64,000 nt of DNA, from NCBI GenBank assembly GCA_035569495.1, contig DATMMX010000047.1:75937-139936 (forward strand). Reading direction: 5' to 3'. The position numbers and the translations under genes are program-made. The notes under the pieces are model-generated. The model ran no database searches. It was not told where the DNA came from and saw only the letters and a program-made list of their open reading frames with translations. The DNA comes from Candidatus Angelobacter sp. (GTDB lineage Bacteria > Chloroflexota > Dormibacteria > Aeolococcales > Aeolococcaceae). Shown here in pieces: positions 3 to 11,203 of this stretch (position 1 is the stretch's first letter; every line of letters begins with the position of its first letter).

Positions 3-974
3 GTCGCCGCCGGCCTCTCGGCTGCCCAGGCCGCGGTCACCAAGGAGCAGACGGCGATCAACACCGCCGACGCTCAGCGCTCCCAGGCGACCGGCATTCA
101 GGCGCAGATCGCCGCGCTGCAGCGAGCCATCGCCGGCGACCAGGCCAACATCGCCGCCGCCCTGGCGTCGCCACCGACGCCGCTGCCCAGCGGTGGCGCC
201 ACCCCGCCGAACACCCTGCTGCTGCAGGCGCAGCGCCAGCTCAACTCCGACGAGGCGGCGCTCGGCTCGGCGCAGGGCCAGCTCAGCTCGCTGCTCGCCC
301 AGTCCTCCGCGGTGGTCGCGGGCGGCGCCCAGACGGTGGCCAACCTGCAGGGCCAGGTGAGCATCGACCAGCAGCTGCTGAGCATCGCCCAGGGCGGCAG
401 CTCGTCGATCGGCGCCCCCATCGAGGGCGACGTCGTCGCGGTCAACGTACTGCCCGGCCAGGCGGCCACCCCGGGCGTGCCGCTGGTGGAGATCGTCGAC
501 CCCTCGAAGCTGCGCGCCACCGCCAAGTTCCCCATCAGCGAGCAGTCGCTGGTGGTCCCCGGCGCCAAGGCGGCGCTGACCTTCAGCGCCCTGCCCGGCG
601 CGCAGCTCCAGGGCAGTGTGGTCAGCGTCATCCCGGTCACCAGCGACGGGCTCACCTTCCAGGCAGTGGTCGAGGCCGGCAACCCCGACCACAAGGTGCT
701 GCCGGGCCTGACCGCGGCGGTCAGCGTCGCCGCCAGCGTACAGGCGGCGGTCGCCGTGCCCCGGCTCTGCGTGCTCGACATCGACCAGAACCCCTACGCC
801 TACGTCGTCGACGCGGGCAACGTAGCCCACCGCCGCACCGTGCAGGTGGGCGCCGTCGACGCCGACAACGTTCAGGTCACATCCGGCCTCAACGCGGGCG
901 ACCGGTGCGTGGTCAACGGCGCCCAGCTCCTCGAAGACGGCAGCAAGGTCACCGTCACCGCCACGAGGGCGTAA
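3..974 (+). CDS. HlyD-family membrane-fusion / periplasmic adaptor protein (5'-partial, continues upstream of window)
   Basis: The reading frame is open from base 3. The N-terminal part is a Q/A-rich coiled coil (…AQIAALQRAIAGDQANIAAAL…). The C-terminus has beta-barrel/lipoyl-like motifs typical of HlyD/RND adaptor proteins (VSIDQQLLSIAQGG…GDVVAVNVLPGQAATPGVPLVEIVDPSKLRATAKFPISEQ). Stop codon TAA at 972-974. Confidence 0.6.
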   Translation, partial: VAAGLSAAQAAVTKEQTAINTADAQRSQATGIQAQIAALQRAIAGDQANIAAALASPPTPLPSGGATPPNTLLLQAQRQLNSDEAALGSAQGQLSSLLAQSSAVVAGGAQTVANLQGQVSIDQQLLSIAQGGSSSIGAPIEGDVVAVNVLPGQAATPGVPLVEIVDPSKLRATAKFPISEQSLVVPGAKAALTFSALPGAQLQGSVVSVIPVTSDGLTFQAVVEAGNPDHKVLPGLTAAVSVAASVQAAVAVPRLCVLDIDQNPYAYVVDAGNVAHRRTVQVGAVDADNVQVTSGLNAGDRCVVNGAQLLEDGSKVTVTATRA

Positions 975-976
975 AG

Positions 977-2266
977 GTGGTGCGGCACCTCCGGGCGCTG
1001 CGACCTCTGCGCACGCTGCGGACGCTGCGGGTGACCTTCGGCGTCCTCGGCGCGGCGGCGGTGGCGGCCGCCCTGGCGCGGCCGTGGCTGGAGGTGCCGT
1101 TGCAGCCACGTCTGTCCGCAACCTCGATCCGCATCGTGGTGGGGGGACTGCCGACCAGCAGATGGGCGACCTACGGCGCCGCGCTGGCGGTGCTCGCCGC
1201 GGTGGCCCTGGCGGCGACGGTGTGGCGGCGCGGCCGTCCCTCGGCGCTGCTCGGCGCGGCGGGGCTGGCGGTGCTGCTGGTCTGCGCCCTGATGCTCGCC
1301 CAGGTGGTGCTCTGGGACGCGGGACTGCGCCACACCCTGGTCGCCCAGAACCTGCAGAAGTCCGTTGCAGTGCAGCAGTTCGGCTACAGCGTGCGGGCCA
1401 CGCAGCCGTCGGCGATCTTCCTCGCCCCGCTGTCGGGCGCCGGCAAGGTGGTGGCCGGCTCGCTCGACCACGGCTTCTACCTGGCCGTCGTCGGTGGCGC
1501 GCTGATGGCGGTGGCGGGGGCTCCGCCGCTGCTGCTCGCCGGCCGCCGCCGCCCGCGCCTGCTCGGCGCCACGGCGGCCGCGTCGATGCTGCTGCTCACC
1601 GGCGCCGCTGCGCCCGGAGTTGTGGCCTGGTATGTCGAGAACTCGGCGGCCGCGGCGGCGCAGCGCGGTGACACCGCGGCGGCGATGAGCGGCCTCGACC
1701 TCGCCGCCCGCCTCGTCCCCGCCTACCGCCAGGACCCCGACGACGAGCTGGCCCGCGGCGTCGCCCTGCTCCAGGCGGGCGACCGCAACAGCTCGCCCGC
1801 GCTCTTCGTGCTCTCGCGCAACGCCGCCTCCGCGGGTGATCGGCCCACCGAGCTGAGCCTGCTCGCCGAGGCCGTGCGCCGCTCGCCGCAGGACACCGTG
1901 GTGCTGGAGGAGTGGCGGGCCCGCTCCGTCGAGCAGGCGCTGCGCATCCACGACCCCTCGCCGGTGCTCGACCTGCCCGCGGCGGTCGCCGACACGGCGC
2001 TGGTGCAGTACGTCAGCGGCCGCCTGCTCTACGACGCGGGCAGCTACGACCTCTCGCTGCCCTACTTCCGGCGCACCCTGCAGCTCACCGGCGACCCCGA
2101 CCTGGGCTCCTCGGCACACACCTACATCGCCCTGGCCGACCTCGCCCTGGGCCGCCCCGACGAGGCCAAGCGCCACCTGGTCCTGGCCATCGCCCTCGAC
2201 GGCACCAGCAGCAACGGCCTGGCCCGGAGCACCGCCACCGGCCTCTACCGCGGCGTGCTGCCGTGA
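977..2266 (+). CDS. Membrane protein with N-terminal TM helices and C-terminal TPR-like repeats (hypothetical)
   Basis: GTG at 977 lies 3 nt after the upstream stop and has a GAGGG RBS. Several hydrophobic segments are present (AALAVLAAVALAATVW, AGLAVLLVCALMLAQVVLW, FYLAVVGGALMAVAG). The C-terminus has helical repeat character (…YIALADLALGRPDEAKRHLVLAIALD). Its stop overlaps the next start (GTGA at 2263-2266). Confidence 0.45.
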   Translation: MVRHLRALRPLRTLRTLRVTFGVLGAAAVAAALARPWLEVPLQPRLSATSIRIVVGGLPTSRWATYGAALAVLAAVALAATVWRRGRPSALLGAAGLAVLLVCALMLAQVVLWDAGLRHTLVAQNLQKSVAVQQFGYSVRATQPSAIFLAPLSGAGKVVAGSLDHGFYLAVVGGALMAVAGAPPLLLAGRRRPRLLGATAAASMLLLTGAAAPGVVAWYVENSAAAAAQRGDTAAAMSGLDLAARLVPAYRQDPDDELARGVALLQAGDRNSSPALFVLSRNAASAGDRPTELSLLAEAVRRSPQDTVVLEEWRARSVEQALRIHDPSPVLDLPAAVADTALVQYVSGRLLYDAGSYDLSLPYFRRTLQLTGDPDLGSSAHTYIALADLALGRPDEAKRHLVLAIALDGTSSNGLARSTATGLYRGVLP

Positions 2267-5200
2267 GCCGCCTGCGCCTGCTGGTCGCCTGCACCCTGGT
2301 CGCCCTGGGCACGGCTGCGGTCGCCGACGTCGCCGTGGCCGCCTTCTCGCGCGTCGACCGGGTGAGCTACACGCCGGCGTTCCACGGCGCCGCCTGGGTG
2401 TCGTCGCCACAGGCGGCGCCGCGCGCCTGGTTCCGGCTGCCGCTGGCGCTCGACCGCCGGCCCGACGCGGTCAGCATCCAGCTCGACGCGGACCAGACCT
2501 GGACGCTCTACGCCAACGGCGTGGCCCTTGGCGACGACAAGGCCGACCTGGCCGCGGGGTTCGCCGCGGTGCACACCATGGACCTGACCGCGCTCATGGT
2601 CGGCGGCGACAACGTCATCGGGGTCACCGTGGTCAACGACAACCGCGGCGCCGCCGCGCTGCGCGCCGAGGTCACGGTGGTGCAGGGGGGCAGACGCACC
2701 GAGCTGCTCACCGGCACCGCCCACTGGCGGGCCACCGCCGACGTGGCCGCGGTGGAGACGCCCGGGCTGGGGCCGGCCGCGATGACCTGGCCGGGCAACC
2801 CAGGCACCGGCGGGGTGCGCCTCGCCCCGGGCCAGACCATCGTCCCCGGCGCCGCCGGGCAGCTCGGCGTGGGCGCCGCACACAAGCCGTCGTCGAGCCT
2901 GCTCACCCCCGGGCAGGCGGCGCCCGCGGCGGCGGCGCAGCAGCCGTTGAGCTCGGCGCTGCAGGGGGCGCTGGGCAGCCTCGGCGGCAACGGCACCACC
3001 GTGGCGGGCGTGGCGGGGGCGAGCGGCGTGCCCCAGGCCGCCGGGCAGGCCGCGCCGGCGGCGTCGGCGACGCCCGCCCCGCGCGGATCGACGCGCGCCT
3101 CGCAGGCGCAGACGGTCACGCCCAAGCTGCTCGCCCAGGTCGACGCCGCCAACTTCTCCATCCCCGGCTTCGCCGATCCGTCGTGGGCGGCGGCGCCGGC
3201 GGTGCAGCCGCCGCGGGGTGACGTCAGCGCGGCCGTCCCCGCGTGGGTCACCGAGCAGCCGCTGGGCGCCCAGGTGGTGACGGCGCCCGGCGCGCCCACG
3301 CTGCTGACGGTGATGGCCACGGTGACCGTCCGCGACGGCGCCTCCGACGGCTGGCTGCGCGTCGGCGCTGCGGGTACCGCATCTCTCTACATCGATGGGC
3401 AGCTGGTCATCCCCCAGGTGGGCGCGACGGTGCCCTCCCCGGACGCCTTCGGCGGTTCCGGCACCAGCGGCGCCGACCCCTGGCGGCAGTCGTCGCCGCC
3501 GCTCAACGTGCCCCGGCAGAGCACCGGGCTGCGCGCCGCGGTGCCCTTCGTCAGCGCGTACCACCTCGGCCCGCTGCTGCACCAGGGAAGCAACCTGCTC
3601 GCCCTGGTGGTCACCTCGGGCGCCGCGCCCAGCGCCTACATGGACGGGCGGTTCACCACCGGCGGGGGGGAGGTGGCCATCGGCAGCGGCGCGGTATGGA
3701 CCGCCCGGTCCACACCGGGTTCGCTCACCGAGGCGGCGGCGACGCCCGCGCAGCCGCTGGGCACGGTGAATGCGGCGTGGCGCAACCGTCCCCCCGTGGT
3801 GCCCATCGACTCGGCGATGCTCAACCGTCCTGACAGCCTGCTCTGGGGACCGCGGCTGCTCGCCGTGGCCCTGATCCCCGGGGCCTGGGTGCTGATCGCC
3901 GCCGTGGCACGGCTGCGCGGGCGGCTGCGGCTCGGCACCCTGCTCGGCGTGGGCGCGATGGGCATGGCGCCCGCGCTGGTGGCCACCGAGATCGTCGGTG
4001 AGCTGGCCCGGCTGCCCAGCTTCCGGCCGCCGGGGGTGCTGGTGCCGCCCACCGCGCTGGCGCTGCTCGGCGCCTCGGTCGGCGGTGACCTGCTCGCCAC
4101 CGTGCTGGCGCTGCGCTCGGCCGGCCTCGGCCGGTTGGGGCGGCGGCTGCTGGCGCTGCGGCGGCGTCCCGCGGCCCTGGTGGTCCGGCTGCGGCGGCGC
4201 GCGGCGGGTGCGGCGGGGGCGTTCGGGACCGTCGTGGCGCATGCCCCTGTCCCCGCACCCGCCGGAGCACCCGCGGGGTGGGCGGTGGCGCGCCGCGCGG
4301 TGGCGCTTGGCGGTGGCGGCCGGGGCTGGAACCTGTCGGCCGCCTCCGGCGCCGTGGCGGGACGGCTGCCGGGGCTGCGTCCCCTGCCCGCGCTGTCGCT
4401 GCGCTCTCTGCTCGCCCGGCTCGGCGGCGGCGCGCTGTGGCTGGCTCATCGCTGGAGCGCCTGCGCGGTGGCGGCGGTGGCCGGCGGCATGGGGCTGCTC
4501 AACGCCTACCGGCTCGACTACCAGCCGTTCTGGCAGGACGAGTTGTTCAGCCTGGCCGGCGCGCGCGGCATCCGCGCCCACGGGCTGCCCATCTGGCCGT
4601 CCGGCTTCCAGTACTGGAAGGGCGAGATCTACAGCGTCACCATCGCCGTGGTGGGGCGCATCTTCGGCGACACGCCGACGGCGCTGCGCATGGTGTCGGT
4701 GGTGCTCTTCGCGGCCACCATCGCGGTCTTCGGGCTGATGCTGGTGCCCGAGGTGATCGGGCGGGGCCGCCGCTGGCTGCAGGTCGGCCTGACGGTTCTC
4801 TTCGCCACCGCGCCGGCGCAGATGACCTGGGCCCGCGAGGCGCGCATGTATCAGCTCGCCGACTTCTTCATGGTGCTGTTCCTCGCCCTCTTCCTGCGCG
4901 CCCTGCGCCGGCCGACGACGCGCAACATCTGCTTTGCCACGCTGGCACTTCTGGGCATGTACCTGTCCCACGAGGAGACCTTCATCGCCCTGCCCGCGGT
5001 GGCCGTGGTCGGCGTGCTCGCGCTGCGTTCGCAGCTCTGGCGCAACCGGCGCTGGATCGTCTTCGGCGGGGCGGCGTTCGCCGTCATCGGCGCGCAGGCG
5101 CTGCTCGCCTTCAAGGTGCAGCCGCAGTGGTTCGGCGCCGACCACAGCAACCGTCCCTACGTCGGCTTCGACACCACCGATGCCTGGTACTACTTCAGCA

Positions 5201-5997
5201 CGGTGTTCTTCAAGGGCGGCGGCGGGCTGGCGCTGGTGACAACGCTGGCGACATTGGGCAGCGTGGTCGGGCTGGTGCGGCGCAACCTGGTGCGCAATTA
5301 CCTGAGCGGCTTTCTCTGGCTGGAGATGCTGATGCTCAGCGTCGTCTTCGCGCCGCGGATCACGCGCTACACGTTCATCGTGCTGCCGCCGCTGTTCCTG
5401 CTCGCCGCCTTCGGCGCGCAGGACCTGCTCGACGGCGCGCGCCGCCTGCTCACGCCGCGTGGTGCACCGCCGCGACTCGCGCGCGCCATGCAGGGCATGG
5501 CCACCGCGGGCCTGGCCACGGTGGTGATGTGGCTGGGCGTGTCACAGCCGGTGTCGGTGCAGGCGTACGGACTGGCCGTCGCCGATGCGACCAGCTCGCC
5601 GGCGCAGATGCAGTACGTCGACTACCAGTACGTCACCGACTACATGAAGCGGAACTGGCGGCCCGGCGACATGTGGGTGGCCGCGGCGCCGCCCAACATC
5701 GCCGCGGAATACCTCGGCCGCCCGCCCGACCGCATCATCCAGACCCACTCCAACGACCGCTTCTTCTACATGTTCGAGAAGAACGGGCAGGCGGTGGACA
5801 CCCAGTATGGCGTGCCCGTGGTGCTCGCCCCGTCCGACCTGCAGCGGCTGCTGGAGGGGCACCACCGCGTCTGGCTGGTCACCGACGACACCCGCTACCT
5901 TGCCGGGTTGCCGCCTGGGTTCATCGGCGTGATCAACCAGCACTTCGCCAAGGTGGCGGAGGGGGCCAGCTCGGCCGTCTACCTGGGCTATGGATGA
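2263..5997 (+). CDS. Large multi-domain membrane protein: two N-terminal beta-sandwich (galactose-binding-like) domains fused to a C-terminal GT-C glycosyltransferase (PMT/ArnT, GT39/GT83-like)
   Basis: GTG 2263 overlaps the upstream stop. The N-terminus has a signal/TM segment (LLVACTLVALGTAAVA). Two repeats of a jelly-roll signature occur (TWTLYANGVALG … ASLYIDGQLV). The C-terminal ~600 aa is polytopic and carries the PMT/ArnT-type first-loop motif (…YRLDYQPFWQDELFSLAG…) followed by many TM helices and a soluble C-terminal domain. It is a single uninterrupted frame in the ORF track (1912..5997). Confidence 0.55.
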   Translation: MSRLRLLVACTLVALGTAAVADVAVAAFSRVDRVSYTPAFHGAAWVSSPQAAPRAWFRLPLALDRRPDAVSIQLDADQTWTLYANGVALGDDKADLAAGFAAVHTMDLTALMVGGDNVIGVTVVNDNRGAAALRAEVTVVQGGRRTELLTGTAHWRATADVAAVETPGLGPAAMTWPGNPGTGGVRLAPGQTIVPGAAGQLGVGAAHKPSSSLLTPGQAAPAAAAQQPLSSALQGALGSLGGNGTTVAGVAGASGVPQAAGQAAPAASATPAPRGSTRASQAQTVTPKLLAQVDAANFSIPGFADPSWAAAPAVQPPRGDVSAAVPAWVTEQPLGAQVVTAPGAPTLLTVMATVTVRDGASDGWLRVGAAGTASLYIDGQLVIPQVGATVPSPDAFGGSGTSGADPWRQSSPPLNVPRQSTGLRAAVPFVSAYHLGPLLHQGSNLLALVVTSGAAPSAYMDGRFTTGGGEVAIGSGAVWTARSTPGSLTEAAATPAQPLGTVNAAWRNRPPVVPIDSAMLNRPDSLLWGPRLLAVALIPGAWVLIAAVARLRGRLRLGTLLGVGAMGMAPALVATEIVGELARLPSFRPPGVLVPPTALALLGASVGGDLLATVLALRSAGLGRLGRRLLALRRRPAALVVRLRRRAAGAAGAFGTVVAHAPVPAPAGAPAGWAVARRAVALGGGGRGWNLSAASGAVAGRLPGLRPLPALSLRSLLARLGGGALWLAHRWSACAVAAVAGGMGLLNAYRLDYQPFWQDELFSLAGARGIRAHGLPIWPSGFQYWKGEIYSVTIAVVGRIFGDTPTALRMVSVVLFAATIAVFGLMLVPEVIGRGRRWLQVGLTVLFATAPAQMTWAREARMYQLADFFMVLFLALFLRALRRPTTRNICFATLALLGMYLSHEETFIALPAVAVVGVLALRSQLWRNRRWIVFGGAAFAVIGAQALLAFKVQPQWFGADHSNRPYVGFDTTDAWYYFSTVFFKGGGGLALVTTLATLGSVVGLVRRNLVRNYLSGFLWLEMLMLSVVFAPRITRYTFIVLPPLFLLAAFGAQDLLDGARRLLTPRGAPPRLARAMQGMATAGLATVVMWLGVSQPVSVQAYGLAVADATSSPAQMQYVDYQYVTDYMKRNWRPGDMWVAAAPPNIAAEYLGRPPDRIIQTHSNDRFFYMFEKNGQAVDTQYGVPVVLAPSDLQRLLEGHHRVWLVTDDTRYLAGLPPGFIGVINQHFAKVAEGASSAVYLGYG

Positions 5998-7439
5998 GGC
6001 GGATGCGGCTCGCGCTCGTGGCCGTTGTGGCGCTGTGCGTGAGCGGCTGCTCGTCGGGGCGGGCCACGGGGGCGACGCCGAGCCCGCTGGCACCGCTGTC
6101 CAGCGTTGCGGGCCCCTCGGTTGTGGCGGGCGGGGACGCTCCGAGTGTCACGCCGGGCGCGCCCGACACGGGCACCGGTGCGCCGGCGTCCGCGGCGCTG
6201 CAGGTGGAGCAGGACGTTCTCGCCAACATTGGCCAGAACGGGTGGGACAGCGCGGCCGGCCTCAACGGGGGGCTCGGGCAGCTCTGGATCAACTGGCGCA
6301 CCGGATCCACACCGCTGAGCACCAACTGGAACAACGTGCCCGCCGCGGAGTGCACGGTCGGCGGCGGCGGCACCCCGCAGTGCACCAGCTCGCCGCCGCG
6401 CACCGACCGGCTCACCGACCTGCGCTACCTGCACGCCCTGGCCCTGTACCGCAACCAGCATCCCGGCGACACCCGCTTCGACGCGCAGTTCAGCCGGTGG
6501 GCGGGGATCGTCAAGTCACTGTGGGGGCGCCCCCGCGACGAGCGGGGCTGGACGTACGAGGTGCTGGTCGACATCACCCGGCTCACCGGCGACGGCTTCT
6601 ACGCGGCCGCGGCGGCGCAGCAGGCGCACTACTACAGCGCCACCGTCTTCCACGCCTCGTGCGGCTGCCTGTACTTCACCGACACGGCGCACCCGCGCGG
6701 CTTCTACCGGCCGGTGGACACCGTCGAGGAGGCCGCCGCCCTCGCCGAGGAGGGCGCGCGCACCGGCAACCAGACGTACATCGCGCAGGCGCGCACCGCA
6801 TTGCAATTCCTCCTCGCCCACGGCTACCTGCGCGCCTGGCACGCCTTTCCCTACGCCTGGGACCAGGTGCTCAATGCCGACGGGTCGGTCAACAGCAGCC
6901 CGGTCTTCGCCGCGGGGCTGCCCAACGCCGGGCAGGAGGTGCGGGTGATCTGGCTGGCCCAGGAGGCGCAGACCCTGCTCCACGCCACCCGCGCCACCGG
7001 CGACACCCGCTACAGCACCCTGGCCACCGAGCTGCTCGACGCCATCACCCCGGCGCAGAACACGCTGGGCCTGTGGGACAGCGCGCACGGCGGCTACTGC
7101 GAGAAGGCCACCTTCTCTGGCAGCGGATTGGCCCAGCCGGGCTCGCCGTCTGTGGGTTGCTCGAAGAAGGAGGCGGGGCGGCAGCTCGTCGTGCTCGACG
7201 CGGTGCGAGTGGCGGCGACGGTTGGGCTGGGCAGCCGCTACGCGGACCTGCAGCAGCGCATGACCGCACTTGCGGTCGGTCCTGACTATTACTCGCACGG
7301 CGCCGGCTACGTGTACGAGGTGGCCCCGGACTACAGCCTCTTCCTCAACCACAGCGTGCCCGAGGACTGGGTCACCACCGAGGCGGACGGCATCGCCCTG
7401 GAGGCGCTCTTCGCGCTCAGCGACCCCTCGCCCTGGTAG
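5994..7439 (+). CDS. Lipoprotein with six-hairpin (alpha/alpha)6 glycosidase-like domain (hypothetical)
   Basis: ATG 5994 overlaps the upstream stop (ATGA). The lipoprotein signal is MRRMRLALVAVVALCVSGCSS (lipobox VSGC). The body contains W/Y-rich helical-hairpin motifs (AQFSRWAGIV…WTYEVLVD…YYSATVFHASCGCLYF…LQFLLAHGYLRAWHAFPYAWDQ) reminiscent of N-acylglucosamine-epimerase/GH76/GH88-type toroids. Confidence 0.5.
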   Translation: MRRMRLALVAVVALCVSGCSSGRATGATPSPLAPLSSVAGPSVVAGGDAPSVTPGAPDTGTGAPASAALQVEQDVLANIGQNGWDSAAGLNGGLGQLWINWRTGSTPLSTNWNNVPAAECTVGGGGTPQCTSSPPRTDRLTDLRYLHALALYRNQHPGDTRFDAQFSRWAGIVKSLWGRPRDERGWTYEVLVDITRLTGDGFYAAAAAQQAHYYSATVFHASCGCLYFTDTAHPRGFYRPVDTVEEAAALAEEGARTGNQTYIAQARTALQFLLAHGYLRAWHAFPYAWDQVLNADGSVNSSPVFAAGLPNAGQEVRVIWLAQEAQTLLHATRATGDTRYSTLATELLDAITPAQNTLGLWDSAHGGYCEKATFSGSGLAQPGSPSVGCSKKEAGRQLVVLDAVRVAATVGLGSRYADLQQRMTALAVGPDYYSHGAGYVYEVAPDYSLFLNHSVPEDWVTTEADGIALEALFALSDPSPW

Positions 7440-7463: not shown

Positions 7464-8696
7464 TCAGCTGACGACGCGGTACGAGGGGGTCGCGCGTCCC
7501 ATGGCGAGCTGCACCACGCCGAGCAGCGGCGCGTGCGGACCGAGGGCCGTGAGCTGCACGGGGACGGGTTCGACGGGCAGGGCGTGGCGGGCGACCGAGG
7601 CGCGCACCGCGTCGACATAGGCGCCGCTCATCATGGCCAGCGGGCCGCCGAGGACGATGGCGGTGGGGGAGAGGAGGTCGATGACGTAGGCGATGGCGCG
7701 GCCGAGGTGGTCGCCGGCCAGGCCGATCACCGCCAGGGCGTCGGGGTTCCCCGCGTCGGCGAGGCGAGCCACCACGTCGGCGGTGACCTGGCCGCGGTAG
7801 GCGGAGAGGGCAGCGCCGGCACCGCGCTCGATCGCCTCCTCGGCGAGGCGGGCGATGGCGGTGCTGCCGGCCATGGTCTCGACGCAGCCGCGGTTGCCGC
7901 AGCTGCAGCGGACGCCGTTGTCAATGGCGGGGGCGTGGCCGATCTCGCCGGCGAAGCCGCGGGCTCCGGTGAAGAGGGTGCGGTCGATGACGATGCCGGC
8001 GCCGATGCCGCTGCCCGCGTACACCCAGACCAGCGAGGCGTGGTCGGCGCCCGAGAGGCGGGCCTCGGCGATGGCGGCGGCGTGCGTGCTGTTGGCGACC
8101 ACGGCGGGAACGCGCAGTGCGGCCTCGATGCGCTGGCGCACCGGCGCGTCGCGCCAGCCGATGTTGGGGGCGACGATGCAGCGGCCGGTGTCGACGTCGA
8201 CCAGGCCCGGCACCGCGATGCCCGCGCCACGGAGCTGGTCGCGCTTGACGCCCGCGCTGGCGGTGGCCTCGCGCAACGCCTTCTGCGCGTCACGGACCGA
8301 CTGGTCCAGATCGCCGTGCACGGCCGGGGTGGTGCTGGTGGCGACCAGGTTGCCGAGGCCGTCGGCGATGGCGACGTGGGTGGTGTTGACGCCGAACTGG
8401 ATGCCAGCGAAGGCGACGGCGCGCTCGTTGTAGACGAGCAGCGACGGGGGCCGGCCGGTGCGGTGGGTGGCCACCTCGGTCCCCATCTCGCGCACCAGGC
8501 CGCCGCCGACCAGGTCCTCGATGATCGAGGAGACGGTCGGCTTGGAGAGGCCGGTCCGGCGCGACAGCTCCACTCGCGAGACCGGACGCCCCTCGCGCAG
8601 GATGTCGAGCACGATGGAGCGGTTGACCTCGCGCATGGTGTGGTGGGCCACCTTGGTGCCGGAGGCCCGCCGCACCAGCAGCTCGTCGGTGCTCAC
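7464..8696 (-). CDS. ROK-family transcriptional regulator (NagC/XylR-like, N-terminal HTH + sugar-kinase fold)
   Basis: GTG start. The N-terminus has a winged HTH (NRSIVLDILREGRPVSRVELSRRTGLSKPTVSSIIEDL). The ROK glycine-rich motif (GIGAGIVIDRTLFTGARGFAGEIGH) and the Zn-binding CxCGxxGCxE motif (VRCSCGNRGCVETMAG) are both present. Confidence 0.85.
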   Translation of the reverse strand: MSTDELLVRRASGTKVAHHTMREVNRSIVLDILREGRPVSRVELSRRTGLSKPTVSSIIEDLVGGGLVREMGTEVATHRTGRPPSLLVYNERAVAFAGIQFGVNTTHVAIADGLGNLVATSTTPAVHGDLDQSVRDAQKALREATASAGVKRDQLRGAGIAVPGLVDVDTGRCIVAPNIGWRDAPVRQRIEAALRVPAVVANSTHAAAIAEARLSGADHASLVWVYAGSGIGAGIVIDRTLFTGARGFAGEIGHAPAIDNGVRCSCGNRGCVETMAGSTAIARLAEEAIERGAGAALSAYRGQVTADVVARLADAGNPDALAVIGLAGDHLGRAIAYVIDLLSPTAIVLGGPLAMMSGAYVDAVRASVARHALPVEPVPVQLTALGPHAPLLGVVQLAMGRATPSYRVVS

Positions 8697-8734
8697 CGCC
8701 TGATCCTACCCCATCCCCCTCCGGGCGACCGCCG

Positions 8735-9550
8735 CTATGTTCGGGTTACTTCCGAACCAGCCAGGGCGGGCGCGGCGAGGTCGCCGTGGGCGCCGAGGTG
8801 GAAGCGCAGGTGGTCGGCGAGGCGGCCCCTCCAGTAGCCCCAGTCGTGGCCGCCGGGCCGTTCGACGTAGCCGTGGGCGACACCGAGGCGGTCGAGGTGG
8901 GCGTGGAAGCCGCGGCTGGCGTCGAGCAGCGGGTCCTCGGTGCCGCAGTCGAGGGCGAGGCGCAGCCCGGTGCGGCGTGCCGGGTCGCTGACCAGCGAGG
9001 TGATGTCGTGCGCCGCCATCAGCGCGTCGTCGTCGCCCCACATGCGCCGGCGCGCGTCGGGGACGTACTGGAACAGTCGCTGCGGGTCGAAGAAGCCGCT
9101 GGTCGCCGAGGCGCTGTCGAAGGTGCCGGGGTTGCGCAAGGCCAGCAGCAGGGCGCCGTAGCCGCCCATCGACAGCCCGGCGACGTGGCGGTCGGACGGG
9201 ACGGGCAGCTCGGCGTCGATCCAGGGCAGCAGCTCGCCCACCAGGTACGTCTCCGCGGCGGTGGTGCCGTCGACCCAGTCGCAGTAACCCGAGCCCAGCT
9301 CGGCGCCGGTGTCGCCCGCCATCACCAGGCAGAACGGCGGCAGCTCGCCCGCGGCGACCAGGCGTGCCGCGGTACGGTCGGCGGCACCCTTCTCCCACCA
9401 TACGAATCCACCGGCGTCGCGGACGCCGTGCAGCAGCACCACCACGGGCAGGTCGCGACCTGGGTGGCCGGGCGGCATCCACGTCCAGTGCTCCAGCCGG
9501 CGGCGGTTGGCCAGGCTGAAGATGGTGTGGCCGGCCAGGCCCTCAGCCAT
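8735..9550 (-). CDS. Esterase-family protein (putative esterase / esterase D-like alpha/beta hydrolase)
   Basis: The first ATG after the upstream garbage frame gives MAEGLAGHTIF…. The nucleophile-elbow motif is GLSMGGYGALLLALRNP. The signature …WGDDDALMAAHDITS… is typical of the PF00756 putative-esterase family. The ORF-track upstream extension (to 9925) is a low-complexity R/P-rich read-through. Confidence 0.7.
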   Translation of the reverse strand: MAEGLAGHTIFSLANRRRLEHWTWMPPGHPGRDLPVVVLLHGVRDAGGFVWWEKGAADRTAARLVAAGELPPFCLVMAGDTGAELGSGYCDWVDGTTAAETYLVGELLPWIDAELPVPSDRHVAGLSMGGYGALLLALRNPGTFDSASATSGFFDPQRLFQYVPDARRRMWGDDDALMAAHDITSLVSDPARRTGLRLALDCGTEDPLLDASRGFHAHLDRLGVAHGYVERPGGHDWGYWRGRLADHLRFHLGAHGDLAAPALAGSEVTRT

Positions 9551-10307
9551 CGGCCGCCGCCTCGAAGCGCGCCATGCGGGCGCGGATGTGGGCGAGGTCG
9601 GCGTCGTGCAGCGAGCGCACCACGGCCATGCCCAGCTGCAGGTGCGGCGGCGCGCAGAGCATCGTGGCGATGGTCTCGGCGACGTCCTCGGGCCGCAGGA
9701 AGCCGTCCAGCGCCTCGCGCGGCAGCGGAGTTGCGGACGCGGACGACCAGAACGCGGTGTCCACCCCGCCGGGGAAGACGCCGTGCACGCGCACGCCGCA
9801 GAGGCGCCCCTCTTCGGCGATGGCCTCGGTGAAGCCGCGCACCGCGAACTTGGTTGCGCAGTAGACGGATTCACCGGGCTCGCCGCGCAGCCCGGCGGTC
9901 GACACCACGTTGACGATCTGCCCACCGCCGCCCACCGCCATGGCGCAGAAGGCTTCGCGACAGAGCAGCACGACGGCGCGGACGTTGACGTGCCACATCA
10001 GGTCGAGGTCGGCGGTGCTGATGTGTTCCACCGGCGCATGCCGGGCCAGTCCCGCGTTGTTGACCAGCACGTCGAGACGGCCGTGCCGCGCCAGCACGGC
10101 GGCGAGCGCCGCGGTCACCGCGCCGTCGTCACCGACGTCGACCACTACGCCCTCACCCCAGGATGCGTCGCGCACCGACGCCGCGACGTCGAAGCCGACC
10201 ACCTCGGCACCGCGCCGGGCCAGCGCTCTCGCGGTGGCGGCGCCGATGCCCGCGGCGGCGCCGGTGACCACGGCGACCTGGCCACGAAGCGGAAGGGGCG
10301 TCTCCAT
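9543..10307 (-). CDS. SDR-family NAD(P)-dependent oxidoreductase
   Basis: The Rossmann motif is VAVVTGAAAGIGAATARALARRGAEV. NNAG is present (VLVNNAG). The catalytic triad is S…YxxxK (YCATKFAVRGF). The stop overlaps the esterase start by 8 nt. Confidence 0.85.
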   Translation of the reverse strand: METPLPLRGQVAVVTGAAAGIGAATARALARRGAEVVGFDVAASVRDASWGEGVVVDVGDDGAVTAALAAVLARHGRLDVLVNNAGLARHAPVEHISTADLDLMWHVNVRAVVLLCREAFCAMAVGGGGQIVNVVSTAGLRGEPGESVYCATKFAVRGFTEAIAEEGRLCGVRVHGVFPGGVDTAFWSSASATPLPREALDGFLRPEDVAETIATMLCAPPHLQLGMAVVRSLHDADLAHIRARMARFEAAADG

Positions 10308-10329
10308 TGTGCGAGCGGGGGTGCGCGGC

Positions 10330-11160
10330 CTAGCCGGCGCGGTGGTAGAGGAGCGGGTTGATCTCGCTCGCCGCGAGGTCGCCGGGGTGCAGGCCGGGCA
10401 GCCACCGCCCCAGGTCGGCGCGGCGCTCGTCGCTGTCGGCGGGGCCGACGCGCGTGCCGTCGGCGAAGTAGATCACCGTCATCACCTCGCGCATGGCGCC
10501 GGTCTGGTTGCCCGGGGCGCGGTGCACCATCCAGCCGTCGTGGAAGGTCGCGTCGCCGGAGCGGAGGGGGCCGACGGCGGCGATCGGCGCGCCGGTCTCG
10601 GCCAGCTTCTGGGTGAAGTGGGCGTCCGAGTCGTCGGAGATGCGGGTGCCGCGCATGTCGGCGTTGCGGTGCGAGCCGGTGGCGAACTCCATGCCCGCCT
10701 CGACGTCGACCAGCGGCATCCACATGGTGACCGTGTGGTCGGTGTCGAGCGGCCAGTAGTAGCGGTCCTGGTGCCACGGGGTGTGGCCGCCGCCGGGCTC
10801 CTTGAACAGCGCCTGGTCGTGGTAGAGGCGGACGCCGTCGACGCCCATCAGGTCGGCGGCCATCCTGGCGAAGCGGTGGGCGAGCACGAAGCGGGCCACC
10901 GCCGGGTCGCGCAGCCAGATGTTCCAGACCTGCAGGAAGGCCCTGCCGTAGGTGTCGCGCTCCTCCAGGGGGCGGTGCTCCTGGTTGAGGCGGCGCACGG
11001 CGGCGCCGATGTGTTCGCGGTACGCGCTCAGCTCGGACGGGGTGCAGACGCCGGGCACGACCAGGTGGCCGTCGCGGCGGAAGGCGGCCACCTGGGCGGC
11101 ATCCAGGTGATGCTCGCCGGTCAGCGCGGGCAGGGTGGTGGCGTCGAGGGTGCTGCTCAC
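10330..11160 (-). CDS. Phytanoyl-CoA dioxygenase (PhyH) family Fe(II)/2-oxoglutarate oxygenase, paralog 1
   Basis: The HxD facial-triad context is HTPWHQDRYYWPLD, with a distal His (FHDGWMVHRAPGN). The start was chosen at in-frame GTG 11158-11160 (VSSTLD…) preceded by GGAAGGA. The ORF-track N-terminal extension (MGRYSKEYLLFLEG) uses AT-rich codons (tat, agt, tta, ttt) atypical for this genome, so I treat it as non-coding. Confidence 0.7.
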   Translation of the reverse strand: MSSTLDATTLPALTGEHHLDAAQVAAFRRDGHLVVPGVCTPSELSAYREHIGAAVRRLNQEHRPLEERDTYGRAFLQVWNIWLRDPAVARFVLAHRFARMAADLMGVDGVRLYHDQALFKEPGGGHTPWHQDRYYWPLDTDHTVTMWMPLVDVEAGMEFATGSHRNADMRGTRISDDSDAHFTQKLAETGAPIAAVGPLRSGDATFHDGWMVHRAPGNQTGAMREVMTVIYFADGTRVGPADSDERRADLGRWLPGLHPGDLAASEINPLLYHRAG

Positions 11161-11203
11161 TGGTCCTTCCAGAAAAAGTAAGTACTCCTTACTATATCTG
11201 CCC
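11161..11203. promoter_or_regulatory. 43-bp AT-rich divergent control region with perfect inverted repeat AGTAAG-N5-CTTACT
   Basis: The sequence is tggtccttccagaaaaAGTAAGtactcCTTACTatatctgccc. AGTAAG (11177-11182) and CTTACT (11188-11193) are perfect reverse complements. The repeat is embedded in the only AT-rich stretch between the divergently transcribed PhyH1 operon and GH31 gene. Candidate -10 elements are on both strands (TATATC on the plus strand 6 nt before ATG 11204; TATAGT on the minus strand). Confidence 0.5.

What the first reader, a model, noticed from the sequence alone, without database searches (positions are those of the whole stretch)
3..7439. Coupled operon: HlyD-like adaptor, membrane/TPR protein, 1244-aa beta-sandwich + GT-C glycosyltransferase fusion, six-hairpin lipoprotein
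Four genes are chained by GTGA/ATGA overlaps (2263-2266 and 5994-5997) and a 3-nt gap. The GT-C portion carries the PMT/ArnT-type motif (QPFWQDELF) but sits behind ~430 aa containing two jelly-roll sugar-binding-like repeats (TWTLYANGVALG / ASLYIDGQLV). This is far larger than actinobacterial Pmt. Combined with an efflux adaptor upstream and a periplasmic (alpha/alpha)6 lipoprotein downstream, it looks like an envelope glycan synthesis/export or protein O-glycosylation module of unusual design.
Basis: partly seen in the sequence, partly recalled or inferred. Interest (0 to 1): 0.55.

Follow-up and report, generated by a model that had tools for sequence, protein, structure and literature searches.

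The report
Lipid-linked sugar transfer operon, unusual design
These four genes are the tail of a conserved, so far unnamed eight-gene cassette of soil Dormibacterota and Chloroflexota that most likely makes a lipid-linked acidic sugar, flips it across the membrane and attaches it to a cell-surface glycan, using a giant sugar-binding, ArnT/Pmt-like membrane enzyme and accessory parts not seen before with such enzymes.

Summary
Four same-strand genes are translationally coupled at 3..974, 977..2266, 2263..5997 and 5994..7439.

- **"HlyD adaptor".** It is the C-terminal half of a 737-aa fusion with an MprF-type flippase-like (PF03706) domain. No efflux pump partner exists.
- **Upstream, outside the window.** UDP-glucose dehydrogenase, a 4-epimerase-like SDR and an ArnC-like GT2.

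The whole block is collinear in seven distinct genomes (four Dormibacterota lineages, one Ktedonobacteraceae, two unplaced metagenomic lineages) and is labelled hypothetical wherever a source names it.

Best reading: a three-component extracytoplasmic glycosylation system, probably transferring a uronic acid, with unprecedented adaptor, TPR and six-hairpin accessories. It is a new variant of a known kind.

The parts
3..974 (+). g1: last 323 aa of a 737-aa protein that fuses a PF03706 (MprF-type, PplT) flippase-like membrane domain to a periplasmic adaptor (MFP). Only the alpha-hairpin, beta-barrel and membrane-proximal domains of the adaptor lie inside the window.
   Evidence: NCBIfam TIGR01730 RND_mfp scores 111 bits against a cut-off of 94.9. 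Pfam HlyD_D23 and HlyD_3 match. The JGI gene table for the same contig lists a 737-aa product with LPG_synthase_TM plus RND-MFP/YknX_C.
977..2266 (+). g2: 429-aa membrane protein with five predicted TM segments and a C-terminal, predicted extracytoplasmic, TPR domain. It ends in the invariant tail SNGLARSTATGLYRG.
   Evidence: Weak Pfam TPR_2/TPR_12 hits at residues 340-409. Hydropathy analysis. Orthologue alignment at 54-66% identity. Syntenic homologues in L009, L011 and L012.
2263..5997 (+). g3: 1244-aa fusion protein. In order: signal/anchor, two CBM67-like domains, three TM helices, cytoplasmic loop, GT-C module, C-terminal extracytoplasmic alpha/beta domain.
2395..2757 (+). g3 residues ~45-165: first beta-jelly-roll, CBM67 / Bac_rhamnosid_N-like lectin domain.
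2764..3144 (+). g3 residues ~168-294: Pro/Gly/Ala-rich linker, predicted disordered and poorly conserved.
   Evidence: pLDDT 25-46. Gapped, variable columns in the orthologue alignment.
3145..3807 (+). g3 residues ~295-515: second jelly-roll lectin-like domain, with a disordered insert at about residues 390-426.
   Evidence: In homologue P0040, Bac_rhamnosid_N scores above its gathering cut-off at the equivalent position.
3832..4398 (+). g3 residues ~524-712: three extra TM helices followed by an Arg-rich loop predicted to be cytoplasmic. Together they return the chain to the cytoplasmic side before the GT-C module.
   Evidence: Hydropathy. Helices in the model; the loop has pLDDT <50. The topology is inferred from the positive-inside rule.
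4399..5544 (+). g3 residues ~713-1094: GT-C (GT-C_A class, PMT_2-type) membrane glycosyltransferase module with about 11 TM helices.
4537..4542 (+). Codons for D759-E760, the acidic pair in the first extracytoplasmic loop of the GT-C module and the putative catalytic motif.
   Evidence: Invariant in the 48-sequence family alignment. At least 90% conserved in the 99-sequence alignment. Aligned to the W.DE of stand-alone PMT_2 proteins.
5545..5994 (+). g3 residues ~1095-1244: C-terminal extracytoplasmic alpha/beta domain, with D1136 and W1204 nearly invariant.
   Evidence: Model secondary structure, pLDDT ~90. Conserved with stand-alone homologues over their full length.
5994..7439 (+). g4: 481-aa lipoprotein (lipobox VSGC, Cys19; alternative start at 6003). 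It has a disordered ~45-residue tether followed by an (alpha/alpha)6 barrel.

Best explanation
The four genes are the distal half of one operon. That operon encodes a three-component extracytoplasmic glycosylation pathway with extra scaffolding.

**Proposed pathway**
1. In the cytoplasm, a UDP-glucose 6-dehydrogenase and a 4-epimerase-like SDR make a UDP-uronic acid, most likely UDP-GalA. Both genes lie just upstream of the window.
2. An ArnC/GtrB-type GT2 with two C-terminal TM helices loads this sugar onto polyprenyl phosphate.
3. The PF03706 flippase-like domain moves the lipid-linked sugar to the outer leaflet. In this genome that domain is fused to the g1 adaptor.
4. The GT-C module of g3 uses the D759-E760 loop on the outer face to transfer the sugar to an acceptor.
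5. The acceptor is held by the two N-terminal CBM67-like lectin domains of g3, so it is most likely an envelope polysaccharide rather than a lipid or a protein.
6. Three accessories are predicted to sit outside the membrane beside the enzyme: the adaptor (g1), the 5-TM/TPR protein (g2) and the tethered six-hairpin glycosidase-like lipoprotein (g4). They would guide, trim or release the modified glycan.

**What is shown**
- Domain identities, folds, conservation of the fusion and synteny.

**What is inferred**
- The sugar, the flippase role of PF03706, the acceptor and the roles of g1, g2 and g4.
For: **Gene structure**
-.

**GT-C identity of g3**
- The C-terminal profile finds 1033 proteins at E<=1e-3 among 1.84 billion.
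- 37 of 46 family members carry PMT_2.
- P0040, which has the same architecture, scores PMT_2 64 bits and Bac_rhamnosid_N 40 bits.
- hhalign gives probability 100%.
- The family profile hits ArnT 5ezm at E 8.6e-5.

**Lectin domains**
-. CBM67 is a Ca-dependent rhamnose-binding module (PMC4690510). CBM67-like tandem lectins bind Gal, GalNAc, GlcNAc and L-Rha (PMC11186620).

**Upstream genes (relative L001)**
- The Ugd is TuaD-like at 413 bits.
- The GT2 matches ArnC over its full length at 220 bits and E 2.4e-65, and also matches PgfS.
- The flippase-like protein matches TIGR00374 (all).
- The GT2 has two C-terminal TM helices.
- Among the SDR's best PDB relatives are the UDP-GlcA 4-epimerases 6zl6 (162 bits) and MoeE5 6kv9 (156 bits); a chain deposited as UDP-glucose 4-epimerase, 7ys8 (164 bits), scores as high. 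UDP-xylose synthases score only 106 bits.

**Cassette conservation**
- The cassette is collinear in four Dormibacterota lineages, in Ktedonobacteraceae and in two further lineages.
- g4 stays linked even where the GT-C has diverged to about 27-34% identity over its C-terminal module.

**Precedents**
- Three-component paradigm: PMC11127046.
- Bactoprenyl-phosphate-GalA transferase RgtE with RgtD/F GalA transferases: PMC7663294.
- PF03706 as a lipid translocator domain next to glycosyltransferases: bioRxiv 10.1101/2022.03.11.483950 and PMC12713373.
Against: - No biochemical data exist for any member.
- g3 itself matches no curated model.
- The SDR's NCBIfam hits are ambiguous among dehydratase, GalE and TviC, and all fall below their cut-offs. 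Its top PDB hit, 5u4q, is deposited as a dTDP-glucose dehydratase. GlcA, a pentose or another sugar therefore remains possible.
- PF03706 has never been shown to flip polyprenyl-phosphate sugars. Known three-component systems use GtrA/SMR or MATE proteins (PMC11127046).
- No gene for building an acceptor glycan lies in the Dormibacterota cassette.
- An adaptor plus a TPR protein is not needed for a simple side-chain modification.
- The upstream genes are outside the window. For this genome they are known only from a gene table without DNA.
Confidence: 0.62

Rival explanations
1. Polymerising machine. The GT-C is processive, as Emb/Aft/Mpt enzymes are. It builds a polyuronide (for example a galacturonan-like exopolymer or wall polymer) outside the membrane from the single polyprenyl-phosphate sugar. 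The adaptor, the TPR protein and the six-hairpin enzyme would play the roles that Alg44, AlgK/BcsC/PgaA and AlgL/BcsZ play in synthase-dependent secretion: conduit, scaffold and trimming or release.
For: - The Dormibacterota cassette has only one cytoplasmic GT (the ArnC-like GT2) and one GT-C, and no acceptor-building genes.
- The accessory set of MFP, TPR and (alpha/alpha)6 enzyme parallels alginate, cellulose and PNAG systems (PMC3815931, PMC9384988).
- A g4 homologue elsewhere sits next to GH28 and GH2 genes, which suggests a uronic-acid polymer substrate.
- The lectin domains could hold the growing chain.
Against: - The best structural matches are the non-processive ArnT, Pmt4 and AglB.
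- No porin or outer-membrane component is present.
- Other carriers add GT4 genes, which could build a separate acceptor.
- Nothing measures processivity.
Confidence: 0.2
2. Protein O-glycosylation. g3 acts like Pmt or PglL-type enzymes and glycosylates secreted or S-layer proteins. The lectin domains would recognise previously attached glycans.
Against: - g3 has no PF02366 hit and no MIR domain.
- The donor pathway is Ugd plus epimerase plus an ArnC-like GT2, not a polyprenyl-phosphate mannose synthase.
- The tandem CBM67-like lectins and the glycosidase-like partner point to a carbohydrate substrate.
Confidence: 0.1
3. Lipid modification. As with ArnT or RgtD/F on lipid A, g3 adds a charged sugar to a membrane glycolipid to alter surface charge.
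For: ArnT is the closest solved bacterial structure and the only GT-C hit by sequence profile. The GT2 is most similar to ArnC. PF03706 proteins are linked to lipid head-group modification (PMC12713373).
Against: - Chloroflexota and their relatives are described as monoderm-type lineages lacking LPS (PMC10608941).
- NCBIfam ArnT-type models do not match g3.
- A 520-aa double-lectin ectodomain and a glycosidase-like partner are unexplained by a lipid acceptor.
Confidence: 0.06
4. Chance neighbours. The adaptor belongs to a drug or metal efflux pump encoded upstream and is unrelated to the glycosyltransferase genes.
For: g1 matches RND/MacA/CusB-type adaptor models.
Against: - No RND, ABC or MFS pump is in the cassette in any of the seven contexts.
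- The adaptor always lies between the PF03706 gene and g2. It is fused to PF03706 in two distant genomes.
Confidence: 0.02

Closest known systems
ArnC / ArnE-F / ArnT and Rhizobium RgtE / RgtA-D,F (GT2 polyprenyl-phosphate sugar synthase plus GT83-type GT-C)
   Same: An ArnC-like GT2 makes a polyprenyl-phosphate sugar derived from UDP-GlcA. A PMT_2/ArnT-fold GT-C with an acidic first outer loop then transfers it outside the membrane (PMC7663294).
   Different: - The acceptor there is lipid A or LPS core; here the host lineage is described as lacking LPS.
- The flippase candidate is PF03706, not an SMR pair.
- g3 carries two N-terminal lectin domains, three extra TM helices and a large cytoplasmic loop.
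- Adaptor, TPR and six-hairpin partners are absent from Arn and Rgt.
Gtr-type and GT136 three-component glycan modification systems; CsbB/YfhO-type teichoic acid glycosylation in monoderms (the latter from my own knowledge)
   Same: The logic is the same: a polyprenyl-phosphate GT, a flippase and a GT-C modify a finished envelope glycan outside the cell membrane (PMC11127046).
   Different: Those use a GtrA/SMR or MATE flippase and a stand-alone GT-C of 400-700 aa. They have no CBM, no MFP, no TPR protein and no glycosidase-like partner.
Mycobacterial EmbA/B/C and AftD (GT-C enzymes fused to carbohydrate-binding modules)
   Same: Large GT-C enzymes with covalently attached extracytoplasmic CBMs that bind the polysaccharide acceptor. 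They give structural matches at lower scores (bioRxiv 10.1101/2019.12.22.885152).
   Different: - Their CBMs are C-terminal or inserted in loops and belong to other families. In g3 the tandem CBM67-like domains are N-terminal and are separated from the GT-C by three TM helices.
- Their donors are decaprenyl-phosphate arabinose.
CBM67 of Streptomyces avermitilis rhamnosidase SaRha78A and the tandem CBM67-like Pleurotus ostreatus lectin
   Different: In g3 the domains are attached to a membrane glycosyltransferase rather than to a hydrolase or a free lectin. Sugar specificity and Ca-site conservation were not tested.
Synthase-dependent exopolysaccharide systems (alginate Alg8/Alg44/AlgK/AlgL; cellulose Bcs; PNAG Pga)
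   Same: The accessory set is similar: an MFP-like periplasmic domain, a TPR scaffold, an alpha-helical-barrel polysaccharide-cleaving enzyme and a sugar 6-dehydrogenase for a uronic acid precursor (PMC3815931, PMC9384988).
   Different: - Here the GT2 is a small ArnC-type enzyme, not a processive multi-TM synthase.
- Transfer is by a GT-C from a lipid-linked donor.
- There is no PilZ domain and no porin.

Membership tests
Pfam PMT_2 (PF13231), GT-C clan of GT39/GT83 | The protein itself scores above the Pfam gathering threshold. | tested here: not met
   g3 gives no Pfam family at E<=0.1.
Pfam PMT_2 (PF13231), GT-C clan of GT39/GT83 | Homology to bona fide PMT_2 members over the whole membrane module. 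| tested here: met
   The A3 profile hits PMT_2-positive proteins, for example P0092 at E 6e-23 in 1.84 billion sequences. 37 of 46 relatives carry PMT_2. hhalign gives probability 100%, E 1.1e-47 over 481 columns.
GT-C_A fold glycosyltransferases | A multi-TM fold superposable on solved GT-C enzymes. | tested here: met
GT-C_A fold glycosyltransferases | A conserved acidic residue or pair in the first extracytoplasmic loop. | tested here: met
   D759-E760 is invariant in 48 sequences and at least 90% conserved in 99 sequences. It lies just after the first GT-C TM helix. The outside location is inferred from hydropathy and the positive-inside rule, not measured.
GT-C_A fold glycosyltransferases | Use of a polyprenyl-phosphate-linked sugar donor. 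| not testable with these tools
   Support is contextual only: an ArnC-like GT2 with two C-terminal TM helices in the same operon.
ArnT / Rgt (GT83) orthologues | A match to curated ArnT-type models, with lipid A/LPS as acceptor. | tested here: not met
   g3 has no NCBIfam hit. The host lineage is described as lacking LPS (PMC10608941). g3 resembles ArnT in fold only.
Protein O-mannosyltransferase (Pmt, PF02366 with MIR domains) | PMT domain plus luminal MIR domains. | tested here: not met
   g3 has no PF02366 or MIR hit. Its ectodomain is CBM67-like instead.
CBM67 / Bac_rhamnosid_N-like lectin domains | Jelly-roll fold and sequence similarity to SaRha78A CBM67 and the Pleurotus lectin. | tested here: met
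CBM67 / Bac_rhamnosid_N-like lectin domains | Calcium-dependent L-rhamnose binding site residues. | not tested
   The defining paper (PMC3636921) was not available, and no residue mapping was attempted.
Periplasmic adaptor (MFP; TIGR01730 RND_mfp) | Score above the curated cut-off. | tested here: met
   g1 scores 111.1 bits against a cut-off of 94.9.
Tripartite efflux systems (RND/ABC/MFS pump plus MFP) | A cognate inner-membrane pump encoded with the adaptor. | tested here: not met
   None of the seven contexts has a pump. The partner is PF03706, which is fused to the adaptor in two genomes.
Three-component extracytoplasmic glycosylation systems | Polyprenyl-phosphate GT, flippase and GT-C encoded together. 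| tested here: met
   The ArnC-like GT2, the PF03706 flippase-like protein and the GT-C are collinear. The flippase candidate belongs to a different family from GtrA/SMR/MATE (PMC11127046), and its activity is untested.
Six-hairpin glycosidases (GH76, GH88, GH105 and relatives) | (alpha/alpha)6 barrel fold. | tested here: met
Six-hairpin glycosidases (GH76, GH88, GH105 and relatives) | Sequence membership in a defined GH family and presence of its catalytic residues. | tested here: not met
   g4 has no Pfam or NCBIfam hit and 7-14% identity to the structural matches. Conserved acidic residues D138, D142, D200, D362, E393 and E463 were noted but not mapped.
Synthase-dependent exopolysaccharide secretion systems | A processive multi-TM GT2 synthase as the polymerase. 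| tested here: not met
   The GT2 is 369-374 aa with two TM helices and matches ArnC at 220 bits. It aligns to PgaC only over about 110 N-terminal residues.

The most novel reading that the evidence does not exclude
The cassette is a previously unrecognised kind of envelope-polymer assembly line for monoderm-type Chloroflexota and Dormibacterota. A GT-C polymerase with built-in lectin domains would make an acidic, galacturonan-like polymer outside the membrane from a single lipid-linked sugar. A flippase-like domain physically coupled to an MFP channel, a membrane-anchored TPR scaffold and a tethered six-hairpin enzyme would feed, guide and trim it. This would be a GT-C-based counterpart of synthase-dependent secretion.
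Probability: 0.2. Interest if true: 0.75.

Novelty: new variant of a known kind. Interest (0 to 1): 0.52.

Why it matters
Dormibacterota and Ktedonobacteria are abundant soil bacteria whose cell envelopes are essentially undescribed.

This cassette is conserved, and every source that names any of its proteins calls them hypothetical. It makes concrete, testable predictions:
- a uronic-acid decoration or polymer on the cell surface;
- a donor lipid, polyprenyl-phosphate uronic acid;
- a catalytic pair, D759-E760;
- a lectin specificity.

It also supplies two architectural novelties:
- A GT-C enzyme with N-terminal tandem CBM67-like domains.
- A recurrent fusion or pairing of the MprF-type flippase-like domain with a membrane-fusion adaptor. 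This would extend both families beyond phospholipid flipping and drug efflux.

Ktedonobacteraceae carriers offer a possible experimental route, if a culturable one can be found.

Tried and rejected
**Searches that gave nothing or little**
- Direct Pfam and NCBIfam scans of g3 and g4 gave nothing.
- Single-sequence and 4-sequence profile searches against PDB sequences gave nothing.
- An 18-sequence C-terminal profile also missed ArnT. Only the 99-sequence profile reached it.
- The word-indexed homologue search found just 4 clusters for g3. It found only 7 with a 48-sequence profile, probably because low-complexity words swamped the candidate list. The exhaustive HMMER search was what opened up the family.
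With the 4-sequence alignment it found one MAG.
- The afdb50 fold library was unavailable.
- The CBM67 paper PMC3636921 is not held, so sugar-site residues were not mapped.
- The promoter and terminator scans found nothing meaningful.
- No tRNA or Rfam element lies in the window.

**Readings considered and rejected**
- An efflux-pump reading of g1: no pump is present in any context.
- An ArnT orthologue.
- A Pmt orthologue.
- A processive GT2 synthase.

Full report
**1. What is in the sequence**

The region has 69-79% G+C, so raw ORF lists are full of spurious frames. A GC3 frame plot and translations leave four + strand genes:

| Gene | Coordinates | Note |
|---|---|---|
| g1 | 3..974 | open at the left edge of the window |
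| g2 | 977..2266 | |
| g3 | 2263..5997 | 1244 aa |
| g4 | 5994..7439 | 481 aa |

- The GTGA overlap at 2263-2266 and the ATGA overlap at 5994-5997 exist.
- The JGI call starts g4 at the second ATG, 6003.
- All quoted peptide motifs are at the stated places.
- No promoter or terminator pattern interrupts the block.

**2. Curated libraries say little**

- g1 is a periplasmic adaptor. TIGR01730 scores 111 bits against a cut-off of 94.9, and Pfam HlyD_D23 matches.
- g2 has only weak TPR hits.
- g3 and g4 match nothing in Pfam or NCBIfam at E<=0.1.
- g3 matches no PDB sequence.
- The word-indexed search of 5.8 billion proteins found only four clusters for g3. All are full length (1240-1272 aa) and 58-100% identical.

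**3. Opening up the family**

- An exhaustive HMMER search with the C-terminal 520 residues found 1033 proteins at E<=1e-3 and 80 at E<=1e-30.
- About 60 of the best 150 are 990-1280 aa with the match at their C-terminal end, which is the same architecture as g3.
- The more distant hits are stand-alone proteins of 500-550 aa.
- Of 46 sampled members, 37 match Pfam PMT_2, 11 match Bac_rhamnosid_N and 10 match Glyco_hydro_2_N.
- P0040 has the same architecture and scores E 1.8e-69 to g3. It scores above the gathering threshold for both PMT_2 (residues 609-760) and Bac_rhamnosid_N (residues 273-386).
- hhalign of the g3 C-terminus against twelve stand-alone homologues (sampled members are PMT_2-positive) gives probability 100%, E 1.1e-47 over 481 columns. 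The alignment includes the W.DE motif and the C-terminal soluble domain.
- A 99-sequence family profile hits three things: the SaRha78A region that contains CBM67 (E 1.7e-46), the tandem Pleurotus lectin (about 1e-18) and ArnT (E 8.6e-5).

**4. Structures**

*g3, residues 45-1244*
- AlphaFold2 with a 48-sequence alignment gave pLDDT 79 and pTM 0.79. Domains score above 90 and three linkers are disordered.
- Foldseek against the PDB returned SaRha78A (2e-11), ArnT (4e-10, TM 0.57) and the Pleurotus lectin (2.4e-8). These were followed by STT3/PglB/AglB, Emb, ALG9/12, Pmt4 and AftB.

*g3 topology, from hydropathy, helix positions and the positive-inside rule*
- An N-terminal anchor comes first.
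- A ~520-aa ectodomain with two lectin domains follows.
- Three TM helices come next.
- A cytoplasmic Arg-rich loop follows them.
- About 11 GT-C TM helices come next.
- The conserved residues D759/E760, K786/E788, R861/Y863, H903-E905 and R1035/Y1036 are all predicted to lie on the outer face.
- An outer C-terminal alpha/beta domain ends the protein.

*g4*
- With 32 homologues the model reached pLDDT 84.9. It shows a lipobox, a disordered tether and twelve barrel helices.
- The fold is therefore certain. The family and activity are not.

**5. Context**

- The same contig upstream of the window encodes, in order: UDP-glucose/GDP-mannose dehydrogenase; an NAD-dependent epimerase/dehydratase; a GT2; and a 737-aa protein combining PF03706 (LPG_synthase_TM) with the adaptor. 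g1 is the C-terminal end of that last protein.
- The three other Dormibacterota-like lineages have the same eight genes, with PF03706 and the adaptor as separate, overlapping genes.
- In L001 the separate adaptor has its own lipobox.
- tblastn shows every component collinear in Ktedonobacteraceae GCA_054928955.1, in a JGI contig (L011) and in GCA_964427535.1 (L012). In L012 PF03706 and the adaptor are again fused, as a 776-aa protein.
- Flanking genes differ between genomes, so the block is the conserved unit.
- g4 is 39% identical in L012, although there the GT-C is only about 34% identical to g3 over its C-terminal module.
- No pump gene is present in any of these contexts.
- The relatives' GT2 aligns end to end with ArnC (220 bits, E 2.4e-65) and with PgfS. 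It has two C-terminal TM helices, which is the polyprenyl-phosphate GT type.
- The dehydrogenase is TuaD-like at 413 bits.
- The SDR's high-scoring PDB relatives, after a chain deposited as a dTDP-glucose dehydratase (5u4q), include UDP-glucuronate 4-epimerases (6zl6 at 162 bits, MoeE5 at 156 bits) and a chain deposited as UDP-glucose 4-epimerase (7ys8, 164 bits). UDP-xylose synthases score only 106 bits.

**6. Origin**

- The only GTDB genome with a close relative of g3 is a Candidatus Dormiibacterota MAG.
- A near-identical g3 (same 90% cluster) and the g4 protein (100% identical) are deposited as hypothetical proteins of a MAG labelled Candidatus Angelobacter sp.. NCBI places that genus in Acidobacteriota.
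- The label therefore conflicts with the relatives. I regard Dormibacterota as more likely.
- Every family member looked up either carries no name or is called "hypothetical protein".

**7. Interpretation**

- The core logic is the established three-component pathway: a polyprenyl-phosphate GT, a flippase and a GT-C acting outside the membrane (PMC11127046).
- The nearest chemistry is the Ugd/epimerase, RgtE, RgtA-D/F galacturonic acid system (PMC7663294).
- PF03706 is the MprF flippase domain. It is widespread and often paired with glycosyltransferases, though its flipping activity is proven only for aminoacyl-phospholipids (bioRxiv 10.1101/2022.03.11.483950; PMC12713373).
- Four features are unusual:
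  - the tandem N-terminal CBM67-like lectins on a GT-C;
  - the extra three-helix membrane hairpin and cytoplasmic loop;
  - the flippase-like domain coupled to an MFP adaptor;
  - the obligatory 5-TM/TPR protein and six-hairpin lipoprotein.
- The lectins and the glycosidase-like partner argue for a polysaccharide acceptor.
- The adaptor, TPR protein and alpha-barrel enzyme echo synthase-dependent exopolysaccharide systems (PMC3815931, PMC9384988). This keeps open a polymerising role for the GT-C.

**8. Verdict**

- This is a new variant of a known kind of system. It is uncharacterised, confined so far to poorly studied soil lineages and experimentally tractable.
- Interest is moderate.

Noticed in passing
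window 2263-7439 (g3, g4): A near-identical g3 (same 90% cluster) and the 100%-identical g4 protein are in NCBI as HXA29966.1 / VN193_14590 and VN193_14595, from a MAG labelled Candidatus Angelobacter sp. NCBI places that genus in Acidobacteriota. All close relatives are from Dormibacterota MAGs, so the taxonomic label or the binning of that MAG looks doubtful.
   Followed up: partly
upstream of window position 3 (same contig); L012:6191-8521: The PF03706 flippase-like domain and the MFP adaptor are one polypeptide in this genome (737 aa) and, independently, in GCA_964427535.1 (776 aa). In the other carriers they are separate overlapping genes, and in L001 the adaptor is then a lipoprotein (LAGC lipobox). 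This domain pairing is not mentioned in the PplT survey paper.
   Followed up: partly
L007:5780-14808 (and L008): A 38%-identical g4 homologue sits outside any GT-C cassette. It lies between two giant PATR-repeat proteins (1380 and 1140 aa) and next to GH28, GH2 and an AraC-type regulator. This hints that the g4 family acts on a uronic-acid-containing polysaccharide.
   Followed up: no
L012:1744-3723: In the GCA_964427535.1 version of the cassette, an asparagine-synthase-type amidotransferase precedes the GT2. Such enzymes amidate uronic acids in some O-antigen pathways (my own recollection). This would fit a uronic acid donor.
   Followed up: no
window 2764-3144, 3430-3540, 4207-4386 (g3 residues ~168-294, 390-426, 649-708): Three Pro/Gly/Ala- or Arg-rich inserts are predicted disordered (pLDDT <50). 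They account for most of the extra ~200 aa of the Dormibacterota proteins over the ~1050-aa family norm, and they probably explain why word-based searches failed.
   Followed up: partly
outside the window, upstream (locus 1457-2602; L001:1175-2356; L003:1165-2190; L004:1172-2203): A divergently transcribed alpha/beta-hydrolase fused to a GerE/LuxR HTH domain precedes the cassette in all four Dormibacterota lineages. It is a candidate dedicated regulator.
   Followed up: no
window 5994-6005; L001:13768-13969: The start of g4 is ambiguous between ATG 5994 (overlapping the g3 stop) and ATG 6003 (the JGI call). The 401-aa call for the orthologue P0159 is probably truncated, because tblastn aligns from residue 3 of g4, starting right at the g3 stop codon in L001.
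   Followed up: partly
window 2180-2263 (g2 C-terminus): g2 orthologues end in an invariant 15-residue tail, SNGLARSTATGLYRG, followed by a variable residue and then L/V-P. This is far more conserved than the rest of the protein and may be a docking peptide.
   Followed up: no
window 7464-14176: The genes after the operon are not conserved next to the cassette in relatives. They are a ROK-family regulator on the minus strand at 7464-8696, an esterase, an SDR, a PhyH protein and a GH31 glycosidase at about 11204-14176. The operon therefore ends at g4.
   Followed up: partly
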